Source: Eledone cirrhosa (taxonomy: Eukaryota). Taken from it: DNA of 64,000 bases. The translations under genes were made by a program, and so were the position numbers. The first letter of the stretch is position 1. Every line of letters begins with the position of its first letter. The stretch spans positions 172,236,001 through 172,300,000 of the forward strand of contig OZ024742.1 of assembly GCA_964016885.1 (NCBI GenBank), read 5' to 3'. Below are positions 17,446-62,769 of this stretch, in pieces. The notes under the pieces are model-generated. The model searched no databases. It was not told where the DNA came from and was given only the letters and a program-made list of their open reading frames with translations.

Positions 17446-17625
17446 TTGTTTCTACTTTAGGTACAAGGCCAGCAATTACCCAGTGCATTACTGGTACTTT
17501 ATTTTATCGACCCCGTAAGGATGAAAGGCAAAGTCAACCTGGGCGGGATTTGAACTCAGATTGTAAAAGGACGTAACTATGCTGGAAAGCATGGCGTCCG
17601 ACCCTCTACCGATACTGCCAATCCA
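17446..17625 (-). mobile_element. tRNA-derived SINE with Meta-domain-like core
   Basis: Minus strand: tggcagtatcggtag (A box), gagttcaaatcc (B box), gcctttcatccttacggggtcgataaaataaagtaccag core, tail aaagtagaaacaatt. Confidence 0.85.
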
Positions 17626-18136
17626 CCGAAGATAATGAAATACAGTAATACAATAATATAATATAATGTAACACAATATAGTACGGTGTGTTAAATTGTA
17701 CTTAGTATAATACAGCGTATGATACACCTTAAAATACTTTCAAGTGTGTCTATGTATAGATAATCAAGCTCAGATAAATACATGTTGACATAGTCAAAAC
17801 GCATAAATTTCATAGTTCACAAAGTGCATATACCCACATTATATATAGAGGTATAGTTATATTGATACTCAACTAAAAATATGCATACACATAAATAGAT
17901 GCAAACATATACATACATATACACATGTGCACACAATCATATACACATATATCTATATCTATATATATATATTTACATATACACACCTATACACACATAT
18001 ATATATATATGTATGTACACACACATATATGTACACACACACACATATAAACACTCATACACATATACTCGCATATACACACATACACATACACACACAC
18101 ACAAATATATATATATATATATATATAGTAATACTA

Positions 18137-21321: not shown

Positions 21322-21376
<55 letters not shown>

Positions 21377-21454
21377 GTAATAAATAGATAGATCTAGATC
21401 TACACAGCGAGAGAGTGGGGGTTGGGTTGAGTGTTATATATATATATATATAAC

Positions 21455-21646
21455 GAAGGAAGTGTTGTAAGCAGTCAGCTGGACCATAAGGCACCAGAGT
21501 ACTCGATACTTCGGGTAGTAGAGTTGATAATAGGAAAAGAGTCAGGACCCCGACGGCTGTGCTTCGGTCGTGTCGACAGCTAAGGTCTGAACTCAGACCT
21601 ACCTGTTGAACTGGCCGGAGCTCAGCCGTCAGCGTCCTGACTCTTT
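21455..21646 (-). repeat. Palindromic ~200-bp repeat module (here 'family X'), diverged copy
   Basis: Homologous to 33151, 57991 and 62483; arms aaagagtcaggac...gtcctgactcttt; (TA)n on both sides. Confidence 0.7.
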
Positions 21647-21828
21647 GCATATATATATATATAACCAAAGATTAATATGTTTCGTTGATTACTCAACGAA
21701 TACAGTTTTACAATATATTAGAAGCACTCAACAAGAAAGAAAAAAAGTTTTCCTGGAGTTTTTAATACTATTCAAAATGTACTGAAAAAACGTACTGAAA
21801 AAATAGCACAGTACCTTTGAAATATATA

Positions 21829-25900: not shown

Positions 25901-26760
25901 AGTAGTGGATATTCTTACCTTTTGACCTGCATTGATCGTTTTTAGCGATGGCTTGAAGCCATCCCCTTAAAGGAAATTACCGCCGAGACGATAGCGCGTG
26001 CCCTGGTATCAGAGTGGATTGCTCGCTATGGCGTTCCAACCACAATTACTACAGACCGTGTTAGGCAATTTGAATCATCTTTTCTCGGAGTTAATGGAAT
26101 TTACTGGCGCTCAACTCATTCGGACCACATCATATCATCCTGCTTCAAACGGAATGGTGGAGCGTTTTCACCGCCAATTAAAGGCCGCTCTTCGTGCTTA
26201 TCCAGACTCTCTACGTTGGAGCGAGTACCTTCCTATTGTGTTGTTAGGAATTCGGTCTTCAATAAAGGAGGACCTTGGGTTCTCGCCGGCTGAATTATTG
26301 TATGGTGCTCCTCTAGCGTTGCCTAGGAAAATACTGCCCCCTGTTGATCTTGCTATTCAAGATTCTCTTTCCTACGTATCTCGTTTGCGCTCGTATTTTC
26401 AGGACTTACCGCCTATGGATACCAGGAAACAACCTATTAAAATTGCAGCCCCGAGGGATATTGCCTCGTGGATACATGTCTTTGTCAGAAACAACGCTGT
26501 TAATCCACCTCTCACACAACCGTACTCTGGACCCTATTGTGTGTTAGCACGTACTGACAAACGTATCACTGTAGCCATTAAGGGATCCAGAGAAACAATT
26601 TCGGTTGATAGACTAAAAAGGGCATACACAGACGCTCATAAACTTGAGCCACAAATATCCCCAATCTTTCTCTATTGTACATACACCTGCTCCCCCCCCT
26701 CACCTACATAGAAGACCACGACCTGTTCCGGTCGAAGAGTCCACTGGCCAAAAAACTCTG
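22934..26760 (+). pseudogene. gypsy gag-pol (frameshifted)
   Basis: gag WFAQMEAFF; PR IIGADFL; [31 protein letters not shown]; RNase H VDASD, ELLAV; IN HPG, HIDIIGP, NGMVERFH. Confidence 0.93.
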
Positions 26761-30928: not shown

Positions 30929-30960
30929 TATATACCTAGGGTGGTGGATTGGCAGTATCG

Positions 30961-31165
30961 TAGATCATGGAGAAACCTTTTCGTCATCAGGGTGTCATTC
31001 TCAGCTACGATACCTGGCGATGTGGGGACACAGGGAACCTATACAAAAATATTCAGTGGATGTAAAAGAGCAAGCGGGGACTAAATTCCAAGACACTGAA
31101 AAAAATCACTGCTTTTTTGTTCGGTGGCAAATTCAAAAGAATCAATCACGTGACATCGAGGTTAA
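30961..31165 (+). repeat. Inverted partial copy of the 32005-32537 LTR
   Basis: Reverse complement of ~32330-32534. Confidence 0.88.
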
Positions 31166-31176
31166 TCCGTACTTTG

Positions 31177-31935
31177 TTATAACCACTTATAACAAAGTAC
31201 TGGGTATTTCTGGAGAATGCAGTTGTATCGCGAAGTCTCTGACTGGCAAATTACATGGCTCACTGTGGATTGCGTGGTAAATATACCTCTCACAGTGAGG
31301 TTTGTGGTGGTGTCAATAAGCCTCCAGTTCTTCATATCCACCAGACGGTTGAAGTGGTGGATAAAATCGGCTCCTAGGATAGGGGTCGGCAGGTCTGCCA
31401 CGACGAACACCCATTGATAAAGCCGACTCAGGCCGGAATTGAGGGTCAGTGATTTTTTCCCGAAAGTCGGAATTGACAATCGGTTCACTGCCTGCAGAAA
31501 TGTCGGGGTTGGGTGTCTTTTGCCAGAGATTAGTGAAACAGGAATAACACTAACCTGGGCTCCTGTATCCACGAGGTAACGGATGCCTGTCGCCTGGTCG
31601 TTAATAAAAAATAGACGACTTTTCTTTTCAGTACCAGAGGTGAACCTCGTCGCTAGGCACTGGGTGGTATTCTGGAAAGAGCACGGGGCTTTGCACTTAG
31701 ATGCCTGTGCGCCGAAATTTGAGTGATACCAGCAGAGGTTGCCAGGCAAACGATTCTGACTGGGACTTCTGGATCTTCGACTGTGAAAAGGCCTGGATCG
31801 ATTGTTGCTGCGTCGCCGGCGTGTTTGAAAGTTCAAGTTCTCTACTTGATTCGAGAGGGCTTTAATTTGACCAGCCCGCTCTCTGATCATAGCCCGCAGA
31901 TCTGAAATATCGGCCTCTGTCGTTGGTTGCGACAT
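31177..31935 (-). pseudogene. gypsy gag C-terminus + aspartic protease fragment
   Basis: CWYHSNFGAQASKCKAPC knuckle, YLVDTGAQVSVIP, ILGADF. Confidence 0.92.
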
Positions 31936-31970
31936 GTCCGTGTTGGTATCTTCTTAGGTGCTGTCTGTCT

Positions 31971-32002
31971 GGTTGCGCGTTCGACTCACGTCCGTGTCAC
32001 CA
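31971..32002 (-). promoter_or_regulatory. Extended tRNA-Trp primer binding site
   Basis: Plus strand GGTTGCGCGTTCGACTCACGTCCGTGTCACCA matches the recalled metazoan tRNA-Trp 3' end including CCA at 27/32 positions. Confidence 0.8.
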
Positions 32003-32004
32003 AT

Positions 32005-32537
32005 TGTTTAGTCGTTATATTCCCTTTGAGAAACTATTTAGTTGGAGTGAAATTTAAGTAAGTAAGCTAATTACTATAATTTTCTTATTTTACATTTTTC
32101 ATATAATTGTTCTGCATCCCCTTCCATTGAACCACAAAGTTACTAAGACACAACCTATATATTTGCTTGCATAGGTATACATCTGTATATATATATATAT
32201 GTTGGTAGATATACTAATTCTTTATAATTATCTCCAAATTATTTTGTTGAGCAAAAATTTGCCAAAATTACTACTATAGTTCATAGTAACAGCTTGGCTA
32301 CTGTCTTTTTAACACCCCACTCCTCACTGATTAACCTCGATGTCACGTGATTGATTCTTTTGAATTTGCCACCGAACAAGAAGGCAGTGATTTTGTTCAG
32401 TGTCTTGGAATTTAGTCCCCGCTTGCTCTTTTCCATCCACTGAATATTTTTGTATAAGTTTCCCGTGTCCATGCATCGCCAGGTATCTTAGCTGAGAATG
32501 ACTCCCTGATGACGAAAAGGTTTCTCCATGATCTCCA
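32005..32537 (-). repeat. gypsy LTR (TG...CA), followed by a partial tandem copy at 32538-32745
   Basis: Ends ...TAAACA 2 nt before the PBS on the minus strand; tandem period ~524 bp. Confidence 0.75.
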
Positions 32538-32572
32538 TGTATATTCCCTTTCAGAAACTATTTAGTTGGAGT
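32501..32572 (+). ncRNA. HHR motif spanning the LTR-LTR junction (antisense to gypsy)
   Basis: actcc-CTGATGA-c gaaaagg...ccctttc a-GAAA-ctatttag-TT-ggagt. Confidence 0.6.
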
Positions 32573-32744
32573 GAAATTTAAGTAAGTAAGCTAATTACTA
32601 TAATTTTCTTACTTTACATTTTTCATATAATTGTTCTGCATCCCCTTGCATTGAACCACAAAGTTACTAAGACAAAACCTATATATTTGCGTGCATAGGT
32701 ATACATCTGTATATATATGTTGGTAGATACACTAATTCTTTATA

Positions 32745-32784
<40 letters not shown>

Positions 32785-33150
32785 AAACACATGGAAAGAA
32801 AGAGGAAAACTGCGTGGTAGCACATGGGTTACATATTATAAAATTAGTCCCTCATCAGTGATTTGCCAACCATCATTGATATTTCATCGCATTAAAAATC
32901 ATATACCTCAGGTTGGTGCGAGCAATAACTAAAATAAACTATTGGGACAAGTGAATCGCGTAAAGCGAGTGAGACAAGTAAACAACATAGAAGGAAAAGC
33001 AAACCGAATGTAGGAAAAAAGCAAGCATCATGATGGTTATCCGGTCAGCATAAACTTGGTGAATTTCATGAGCGCTCAGAAAACAAACCGTCCGACGTGA
33101 ATGAGATGTGAGAAAGAAAGAATCTCACTAATATTTATATATATATATAT

Positions 33151-33343
33151 GAAAAAGTATAACCCCGACGGCAGAACTCAAGCCGTTTCGACGGCTATTT
33201 CTGGAGTCCAGAAATAGCCGTCGAAACGGCTTCAGCTCTGCCGTCGGGGTCATACATTTTCCTATTTCCCACTCTACTACCCTAAGTCTTGAGTACTCTG
33301 GTGCGTTATGGTCTATCTGGTTCCTTACCACAATTCCTTTGTT
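33151..33343 (+). repeat. Family X palindromic module
   Basis: ~110-bp palindrome centred on ctggagtccag, plus an ~85-bp tail ending cacaattcctttgt-(TA)n. Confidence 0.85.
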
Positions 33344-33373
33344 ATATACATATTGTATATGTATATATATATG

Positions 33374-33432
<59 letters not shown>

Positions 33433-33439
<7 letters not shown>

Positions 33440-34010
33440 CGTAAAATAAGAAAATTATAAAATTGACTTACTTACTAAAATATCACTCCCAACTAATTAG
33501 TTACTGAAAGGGAATAAACAGAATAAACATACTTTCCGAAGAAGCGTACAGGGAAGTCTATTCTCAGCTAAGATTCCAGGCAAAACGTGGACACAGGGAA
33601 TATATACAAAAATAATTCAGTGGATGGAAAAGAGCAGAGCGTGGACTAAATTCCTAGCCATTGAGAAAATCACTGCCTACTGCGTCGGTGGCAAATTCAA
33701 AAGAATCAATCACGTGACATCGAGGTCAATCAGTGGAAAGTGGTTTGTTAAGAAGACAGCAGCCTGACTGTTACTATAGCAGCAGTTTTGGCTAATTTTT
33801 GCTCGACAAATAATTTGGAGATAATTATAAAGAATTAGTATATCTAGTAACATATATATACACAAATGCATATTTATGCTAGCAAATATATAGGTTTTGT
33901 CTTAGTAACTTTGTGGTTCAATGCATGGGGTTGCAGAACAATTATATGAGAGACGTAAAATAAGAAAATTATAAAATTAACTTACTTACTACATTTCACT
34001 CCCAACTAAT
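33433..34010 (+). repeat. Permuted tandem copy (~514-bp period) of the 32005 LTR family within (TA)n
   Basis: Homologous to the reverse complement of 32005-32620; terminal ~62-bp direct repeat (33433 / 33947); no gypsy internal sequence. Confidence 0.85.
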
Positions 34011-36864
<2,854 letters not shown>

Positions 36865-57229: not shown

Positions 57230-57992
57230 TAATAAAATAGATGTTCTTTTGATCAATTACATTTTATTATACATATTTCAGATGTACAACAGTACGTCCT
57301 CATCAGACAAAACATAATGATACATGCCATAACCTGAGATGTTAAATGGTTAAGATTTAATCAACTAGTGATTAACCTAAGAGAAAATTTAACATATATA
57401 CCCTAATAATGAGAAAATGCGAAAACGTAATAAATTCAATAGAGAATGTGTGAGTAAGAAAAACGTTGCTTAATGTAACAGTTATAGAGATTTTAAAATG
57501 TATGATACTACAATATATCTAGGAAAATATCTCATGAATCATAACAGCCAGTGATAGCCCCTGGAAAAGGATTTATAAAGAGGGAAAGATAACGGGGGTG
57601 TGATATATGCAGAAGGGGATTTTTCCCGAAAGTTAAACGGTTAATTTTGAAAATATTTAATTTATAATATAGGGTGAAGACTCAAGATTTAGGGATTTTT
57701 TTTGCTGGGTATTTATATATTCGTTTTATAAATTCTATAAGTGTGTTAACATTTCTAAGCTTCTGAGTTTTATGAGGGTAACATTTAAAGGATTTAGCTG
57801 GCACATCAAGAATGAAATTTTATACTGTTGATTATTTTCCTAAATTTAAACTTTAACTAAGATACCAACATATTAGGTATGTAAAGCTTTTGAAGTACTT
57901 ATTGTTAGAAATATTTAAATAACGATTATGTATATAGATATATATTATTTCTAACAATAAGTACTTTAAAAGCTTTACATACCTAATATGTT
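57230..57992 (-). mobile_element. Decayed PLE 3' end with HHR and a 5' fold-back
   Basis: Weak GIY-YIG-like remnant (VIFPLYK); HHR near the left end; inverted arms 57868-57915 / 57945-57992. Confidence 0.6.
57256..57318 (-). ncRNA. Type-I HHR
   Basis: Minus strand: attatgttttgt-CTGATGA-ggacgtac tgtt gtacatct-GAAA-tatgta-TA-ataaaatgtaat; 12-bp stem I. Confidence 0.85.
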
Positions 57993-58136
57993 TCGACGGC
58001 TATTTCTGGACGCAGTCGAAACGGCTTGAGCTCTGTCGTCGGGCCATATATTTTTCCTATTTCCCACTCTACTACCCTAAGTATTGAGTATTTTGGTGCG
58101 TTATGTTCCATCTGGTTCCTTACCACAATTCCTTTG

Positions 58137-58139
<3 letters not shown>
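57991..58139 (+). repeat. Family X module (partial)
   Basis: tttcgacggctatttctggac...gtcgaaacggcttgagctctg...cacaattcctttgtaa. Confidence 0.85.
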
Positions 58140-58216
<77 letters not shown>

Positions 58217-58218
<2 letters not shown>

Positions 58219-62482: not shown

Positions 62483-62686
62483 GGGGAAAAGTGTCAGGAC
62501 CCCGACGGCAGAGCTCAAGCCGTTTCGACGGCTATTTCTGGACATAAATAGTCCAGAAATAACCGTCGAAACGGCTTGAGCTCTGCCGTCAGGGTCATAC
62601 TTTTTCCTATTTCCCACTCTACTGCCCTAAGTATTGAGTACTCTGGTGCGTTATGGTCCATCTGGTTCCTTACCACAATTCCTTTG

Positions 62687-62689
<3 letters not shown>
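62483..62689 (+). repeat. Family X palindromic module
   Basis: gaccccgacggcagagctcaagccgtttcgacggctatttctggac-ataaata-gtccagaaataaccgtcgaaacggcttgagctctgccgtcagggtc plus tail, then (TA)n. Confidence 0.88.

Positions 62690-62769
<80 letters not shown>

What the first reader, a model, noticed from the sequence alone, without database searches (positions are those of the whole stretch)
30961..34010. Gypsy LTR whose two ends hold a split antisense hammerhead, arranged like a Penelope/retrozyme product
Seen: 32005-32537 behaves as a gypsy LTR (TG..CA, tRNA-Trp PBS, gag-PR downstream on the minus strand). On the plus strand its left end has ccctttga-GAAA-ctatttag-TT-ggagt and its right end has actcc-CTGATGA-cgaaaagg. 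These are complementary HHR halves. They could close as a type-II HHR around the whole LTR, or as a compact type-I HHR across an LTR-LTR junction, which exists at 32501-32572. The locus reads inverted partial repeat (30961-31165), antisense gypsy fragment, full repeat, partial tandem repeat, (TA)n. A second copy (33433-34010) is a circularly permuted 1.1-mer inside (TA)n, with no gypsy coding sequence and a decayed core. Known: this layout typifies PLE insertions and metazoan HHR retrozymes, while integrase-driven gypsy insertion yields direct LTRs or solo LTRs. Inference: an LTR acting as a self-cleaving, possibly circular, RNA monomer that is mobilised in trans by PLE machinery, i.e. an LTR/retrozyme hybrid.
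Basis: partly seen in the sequence, partly recalled or inferred. Interest (0 to 1): 0.78.

Follow-up and report, generated by a model that had tools for sequence, protein, structure and literature searches.

The report
Hammerhead retrozyme with captured gypsy scrap
The repeat is not a gypsy retrotransposon's end but one copy of a very abundant non-coding repeat that carries a conserved hammerhead ribozyme motif and is likely copied around the genome by Penelope-like jumping genes, a known kind of element; the gypsy piece next to it is a one-off captured fragment.

Summary
The sequence features are real; the LTR reading is wrong. All 29 other gypsy copies examined continue past the primer-binding site into a different LTR. 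Genome-wide, that junction pattern occurs 108 times and the junction to this repeat once. The ~520-nt unit is a non-coding tandem repeat with one contiguous type I hammerhead (32501-32572). The motif's core pattern has 10,755 exact matches against 0 controls, and helices I and II covary across subfamilies. Copies end at two fixed sites against (TA)n (73 of 77) and often carry an inverted 5' head (47 of 77), the Penelope-like signature. This is an animal non-LTR retrozyme, likely a non-autonomous Penelope-like element. Here an 808-nt gypsy fragment sits in the inversion junction, the only filler over 100 nt among 88 junctions. Cleavage, circles and the partner element are untested or not found. 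Side lead: a sister subfamily gains (CT)n only at insertion ends, possibly by reverse-transcriptase stutter. The scan noted comparable Penelope-type repeats in other genomes.

The parts
30940..30961 (+). Left flank: head of a SINE-like repeat, cut off at the insertion's 5' junction (3-4 nt of possible microhomology; no target-site duplication seen)
   Evidence: Similar head at window ~17605-17627; 7 contigs continue differently behind 30960 (table 7). 'SINE-like' is my recalled label.
30962..31170 (-). Inverted 5'-truncated monomer (monomer positions 100-308), holding only the 5' half of the hammerhead
31169..31200 (.). Junction filler forming a 13-bp hairpin; present in no other gypsy copy
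   Evidence: sequence; 28 other gypsy copies read differently here; junction found only here
31200..32007 (-). Gypsy-type LTR-retrotransposon fragment: 3 nt of LTR end, primer-binding site (about 31985-32002), gag-like stretch, protease, broken off shortly after; no LTR
   Evidence: 93.6% median identity to 27 other copies, within the family's range. tRNA-Trp assignment of the primer site is recalled, not tested.
32008..32015 (.). 8-nt filler between gypsy fragment and repeat
   Evidence: junction pattern unique in the genome
32016..32226 (+). 5'-truncated direct monomer (positions 314-518) with the 3' half of a hammerhead; one helix II pair broken
32227..32744 (+). Full 518-nt monomer, subfamily A, ending at the family's far fixed end
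32501..32572 (+). Type I hammerhead motif: helix I 5 bp, helix II with a C.A mismatch at its base and a long loop, short helix III (family palindrome broken by one change in both window monomers); predicted cut after 32567
32741..32784 (.). (TA)n at the 3' end
33429..34012 (-). Independent insertion of subfamily B (positions 333-518 then 1-403), ending at the near fixed end, between (TA)n runs; hammerhead core deleted

Best explanation
The ~520-nt unit is a high-copy, non-coding tandem repeat with a conserved type I hammerhead motif, likely a non-autonomous Penelope-like element (animal non-LTR retrozyme), and the gypsy piece is a single fragment likely captured while this one copy was being inserted. 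Shown: family size, absence of an ORF between tandem units, covarying helices, two fixed 3' ends against (TA)n, head-to-head inverted 5' ends, uniqueness of the gypsy junction. Inferred: a multimeric or circular RNA is bound by the reverse transcriptase/GIY-YIG endonuclease of an autonomous Penelope-like element; TA-rich DNA is nicked; copying starts at one of two internal sites about 60 and 180 nt past the ribozyme cut site. At this locus a second priming or fold-back event made the inverted piece, whose break (position 308) abuts the start of the direct piece (314), and the gap was filled by a snap-back hairpin plus 808 nt copied from a gypsy template. Untested: self-cleavage (predicted to need a dimer or protein help) and circular RNA.
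For: True gypsy LTR differs in 29 of 29 other copies and shares only TA runs with the repeat; junction counts 108 vs 1. Search of the unit gave 3,014 candidates, 40 scored; one array holds 16 consecutive near-full units plus partial ones with no ORF between. Core pattern 10,755 vs 0 control. On 26 distinct rows, 97.7% of cells pair, 5 pairs change on both sides, one helix II pair takes four types, covariation score above all 500 shuffles and all slid controls. Of 77 parsed insertions, 73 end at two fixed sites, 74 abut TA, 47 have an inverted head and 38 of those start at the same two sites. These features match Penelope-like elements as described in PMC8557442 (passages), PMC3846280 (passages) and PMC11167929 (parts 1-2: two internal start sites, both strands cut and extended). 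The genome encodes RT plus GIY-YIG proteins whose ends also abut (TA)n and some of whose neighbouring hammerhead-like motifs have the same mismatch at the base of helix II. Both direct window monomers share a change seen in none of 157 other instances, which fits one template.
Against: No autonomous element sharing this terminal sequence was found among 46 GIY-YIG loci examined of 150 listed. Rfam finds no hammerhead here, at gathering score or at E up to 10. The hammerhead fold is not the predicted minimum-energy fold of the 72-mer (-3.7 vs -12.3 kcal/mol), and the monomer is not unusually structured (z -1.35), unlike the 'highly self-paired' circles of PMC7229834. Core and helix III are invariant in the alignment by construction, and the covariation counts are sequences, not independent events. 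The window locus is atypical: its inverted head does not start at a fixed end and its left flank is not TA. Within-locus divergence is only slightly below between-locus divergence.
Confidence: 0.85

Rival explanations
1. The unit is the LTR of a gypsy element and doubles as a self-cleaving circular RNA.
For: It directly follows a primer-binding site and gag-protease, begins and ends with TG..CA in one reading, and is about the length of the true LTR.
Against: 29 of 29 other copies have another LTR; 108 vs 1 junction matches; 0 of 149 other repeat loci hold gypsy DNA; unit ends are fixed elsewhere.
Confidence: 0.02
2. The repeat family is as described, but the gypsy fragment came in by later DNA rearrangement or repair (inversion plus deletions), or by read-through from a lost source locus where the repeat lay inside a gypsy element.
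For: Left flank is a truncated SINE-like head, no target-site duplication, atypical start of the inverted head; a filler of this size is unique among 88 junctions.
Against: Neither flank holds the rest of the gypsy or its LTR; no second locus with the junction; the two breakpoints abut (308/314), as one insertion event predicts; short templated fillers occur at other junctions (e.g. L011).
Confidence: 0.3
3. The copies are truncated terminal repeats of an autonomous Penelope-like element not yet found, rather than an independent non-autonomous family.
For: Same end signature as autonomous elements; an earlier scan note reached this verdict for another genome.
Against: Unit-to-unit junctions are contiguous with no ORF in dimers, trimers and a 16-unit array; at least six helix II variants mark separately amplified subfamilies; the PLE protein hits near 6 of 151 loci belong to families with other terminal sequences.
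Confidence: 0.1

Closest known systems
Animal non-LTR retrozymes (Cervera and de la Pena 2020, PMC7229834; Li, Clavereau and Pollet 2026, 10.64898/2026.07.22.740005)
   Same: Non-coding tandem repeats, one type I hammerhead per unit, dimers to long arrays, low GC, thousands of copies, co-occurring with autonomous Penelope-like elements; a mismatch at the base of helix II has precedent (axolotl HHR_Amex2).
   Different: Unit of about 520-560 nt is above the 170-400 nt given in PMC7229834 but within the 51-972 bp of the preprint; ribozyme is of the Penelope type (long helix II, 5-6 bp helix I); monomer not predicted to be strongly self-paired; cleavage and circles not shown here.
Endonuclease-positive Penelope-like elements and their pseudo-LTRs (PMC4209133, PMC8557442, PMC3846280, PMC11167929)
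   Same: Partial tandem plus inverted 5' copy, two alternative 3' ends ('tail'), microsatellite target bias, palindromic helix III, capture of unrelated DNA between terminal repeats.
   Different: No ORF; the tail is about 115 nt rather than 30-40; partner element not identified.
Plant LTR retrozymes (as summarised in the 2026 preprint's introduction)
   Same: Superficially: a hammerhead beside a gypsy primer-binding site.
   Different: Those have type III hammerheads in true direct LTRs with 4-bp target duplications; none of that holds here.

Membership tests
Gypsy LTR | Same sequence precedes the primer-binding site in other copies | tested here: not met
   0 of 29; 108 vs 1
Gypsy LTR | Occurs as direct pair around coding region or as solo LTR with short target duplication | tested here: not met
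   tandem/inverted copies in (TA)n; no gypsy DNA at 149 other loci
Type I hammerhead | Conserved core boxes and cleavage triplet | tested here: met
   intact in 37 of 53, 47 of 50 and 44 of 51 copies of three subfamilies (6 further rows not parsed); 10,755 vs 0
Type I hammerhead | Three helices supported by covariation | tested here: met
   helices I and II; helix III never varies, so gives no covariation
Type I hammerhead | Match to curated Rfam hammerhead models | tested here: not met
   likely due to the long loop II and the C.A mismatch (inference)
Type I hammerhead | Self-cleavage | not testable with these tools
   needs an assay
Non-LTR retrozyme | ORF-less tandem units each with a hammerhead | tested here: met
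Non-LTR retrozyme | Two consecutive complete hammerheads at this locus | tested here: not met
   one complete motif only; other loci have two or more
Non-LTR retrozyme | Expressed as circular RNA | not testable with these tools
   needs RNA data
Penelope-like insertion | Partial tandem, inverted 5' copy, two alternative 3' ends, microsatellite bias | tested here: met
Penelope-like insertion | Sequence shared with the terminal repeat of an autonomous element | tested here: inconclusive
   none in 46 of 150 listed GIY-YIG loci

The most novel reading that the evidence does not exclude
The Penelope-type reverse transcriptase that copies this family stutters like telomerase on a short template patch when it starts, and so writes new microsatellites into the genome. 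In sister subfamily C the far end carries four or more CT units at 21 of 24 terminal ends and at 0 of 22 internal junctions, while the opposite flank is plain (AT)n. With over ten thousand hammerhead-bearing copies, the family would be a natural record of repeat addition by telomerase's closest retroelement relatives.
Probability: 0.4. Interest if true: 0.6.

Novelty: new member of a known kind. Interest (0 to 1): 0.33.

Why it matters
An LTR that doubles as an animal retrozyme would have been new; that is refuted. What remains is a large, well-conserved retrozyme family with unusually clear covariation and the full Penelope insertion signature. It extends to an invertebrate-looking genome the view that animal retrozymes are non-autonomous Penelope-like elements, which the 2026 preprint tested mainly in vertebrates. 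It also offers many natural copies for studying where Penelope-type reverse transcription starts and whether it stutters.

Tried and rejected
LTR identity: rejected. Type II closure around the unit: formally possible, but it is only the permuted reading of a truncated tandem, and the upstream half has a broken helix II pair. Source locus with the same gypsy-repeat junction: none found (only 4 candidates scored). Autonomous partner: blast of both window subfamilies against 46 GIY-YIG loci gave only two neighbouring repeat copies; the first run was swamped by TA runs; a short-loop pattern returned only deletion variants. Expression: no RNA holder listed, which is no evidence either way. Contigs of three runs were too fragmented to bridge the junctions. 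Circle versus multimer template: within-locus divergence (medians 4.1, 1.8, 2.6%) versus between-locus (5.0, 2.9, 2.9%) does not decide it (overlapping loci dropped). Stutter control: in background, long TA runs preceded by in-phase TC show 0 with two units, 2 with three and 34 with four or more among 3,072 sides, so ordinary host slippage after insertion is not excluded; out-of-phase TC ends stay unexpanded in 23 of 27. Two 'intact core' counts for the long array used a mis-sized pattern and are disregarded; the constrained fold was off by one and was redone. Paper searches for stutter by Penelope-type enzymes found no such report; slippage is noted for the LINE UnaL2 (PMC3747384, passage). 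Subscription papers and the preprint's supplements were not visible and may already list this family.

Full report
Observation. The minus-strand frame 31177-31953 has a retroviral-type protease match. The hammerhead motif is at 32501-32572 with the predicted cut after 32567; my descriptor gave 1 hit in the region and none in 500 shuffles. Rfam did not detect it.

It is not an LTR. A genome search with the gypsy fragment (259 candidates, 40 scored, 30 loci returned including this one) showed every other match stopping at window position 32007 or just before it. All 29 other loci continue into one shared, different sequence. That sequence stays alike for about 490-505 nt, as an LTR would, is absent from the window, and shares only TA runs with the repeat. 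Exact patterns count 108 primer-site/true-LTR junctions and 1 primer-site/repeat junction, this one. The gypsy match also stops at 31200; the 29 nt beyond form a hairpin found in none of 28 other copies. None of 149 other loci of the repeat family holds gypsy DNA within about 1.5 kb.

What the repeat is. The unit has thousands of candidates (3,014 and 2,724 scored each). It forms contiguous head-to-tail dimers, trimers and an array with 16 consecutive near-full units. The ribozyme is contiguous inside each unit; it looks split in the window only because the first direct copy starts inside loop II. The core pattern has 10,755 exact matches against 0 for the reversed control; the window copy itself is not among them, because its helix III palindrome has one change. 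Subfamilies about 77-82% alike keep helix II through double changes: one pair is A-U, U-A, G-C or C-G, two others also switch, and helix I changes on both sides. In one search, 97.7% of 390 cells pair and the covariation score exceeds all 500 shuffles and all slid controls. Caveats: 24 of the 29 rows came from the 30 loci of the pattern search (6 near-duplicate neighbours left out), so core and helix III are invariant by construction, and counts are sequences, not events. The C.A mismatch at the base of helix II is atypical, but a U.U mismatch there is reported for axolotl HHR_Amex2 (PMC7229834, part 3 read), and hammerhead-like motifs beside Penelope-type ORFs in this genome show T.T there. 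A palindromic helix III suggests dimer-dependent cleavage (PMC4209133, parts 1-2 read).

How it moves. Among 77 parsed insertions of three subfamilies (top hits; overlapping loci and the window's own dropped; 1 not parsed), 73 end at one of two fixed positions, 74 abut TA, 47 carry an inverted 5' head, and 38 of those heads begin at the same two positions. Partial tandems, inverted 5' copies, an optional tail and microsatellite bias are the described marks of Penelope-like insertion (PMC8557442, passages). A purified Poseidon protein cuts and extends both strands and starts copying at two internal sites that define the tail (PMC11167929, parts 1-2 read). The genome has many GIY-YIG matches (150 scored of 10,597 candidates), some in RT-bearing ORFs. 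I found no autonomous element sharing the repeat's sequence in the 46 loci checked. The 2026 preprint (parts 1-3 of 5 read) argues that such retrozymes are non-autonomous Penelope derivatives; only 1 of its 9 tested dimers cleaved, so activity cannot be assumed.

This locus. The inverted piece covers unit positions 100-308 and the direct piece begins at 314, so the breakpoints abut, as one insertion with a second priming or fold-back predicts. Both direct monomers share a change absent from 157 other instances. The left junction cuts a SINE-like head without target duplication. Of 88 head-to-head junctions in 131 loci, 76 have no filler, 11 have up to 100 nt and only this one has more (845 nt; loci reach only 1.5 kb each side). 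Capture of unrelated DNA between Penelope terminal repeats, and microhomology-joined 5' ends, are described in PMC3846280 (passages). I put capture during insertion at about 0.65 and later rearrangement or read-through at about 0.3. With one complete ribozyme, a broken palindrome and a damaged upstream half, this copy is likely inactive. The second window copy is an independent subfamily B insertion whose core is deleted.

Side lead. In subfamily C the far end of the unit has two CT units at internal junctions (21 of 22) but four to thirteen at 21 of 24 terminal ends in that tally (Fisher p 3e-10), while the opposite flank is plain (AT)n. Reverse-transcriptase slippage at initiation would explain it. 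Host slippage next to a long in-phase TA run is not excluded, because background TA runs also show an excess of long TC neighbours. Slippage is known for some LINEs (PMC3747384, passage); three searches found no report for Penelope-type enzymes.

Verdict. New member of a known kind: a large animal non-LTR retrozyme family with Penelope-type insertions. The LTR/retrozyme hybrid is refuted. The host looks to me like a cephalopod-type genome (AT-rich, 3.0 Gb, microsatellite-dense); that is an impression, not a test.

Noticed in passing
L142-L171 and L178, L190, L218, L220 (subfamily C-type far ends): (CT)n expansion at terminal but not internal copies of the far end; two near ends (L086, L176) show a short (CA)n instead.
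   Followed up: partly
window 54819 (+); L136 7368-8853; L127 6000 and 6459; window 21124, 39078 (+) and one on the minus strand: Other hammerhead-like motifs, some in tandem repeats of about 460-510 nt, pointing to further retrozyme families in this genome.
   Followed up: no
L096, L099, L103, L120 (about 430-460 nt after the stop): Penelope-type family whose hammerhead-like motif appears to carry the U3-A8 core variant described in PMC4209133 (read by eye).
   Followed up: no
L203-L232, loop II: A second small hairpin inside loop II appears to covary between subfamilies and is mostly deleted in the window's variant.
   Followed up: no
window 33160-33430, 57990-58217, 62485-62769, 21327-21664: A repeated element with a long internal palindrome, usually next to TA runs.
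   Followed up: no
window 34372-35610 and 25946-26711: A LINE-type reverse-transcriptase frame (Pfam RVT_1) and an integrase-like gypsy remnant (by eye; no Pfam hit).
   Followed up: no
L224-L226: Two different subfamilies of the repeat joined tail to tail across one short TA run.
   Followed up: no
L202 (G000:C2:226738000-226747999): Array of 16 consecutive near-full units plus partial ones, 92-95% alike to the window unit.
   Followed up: partly
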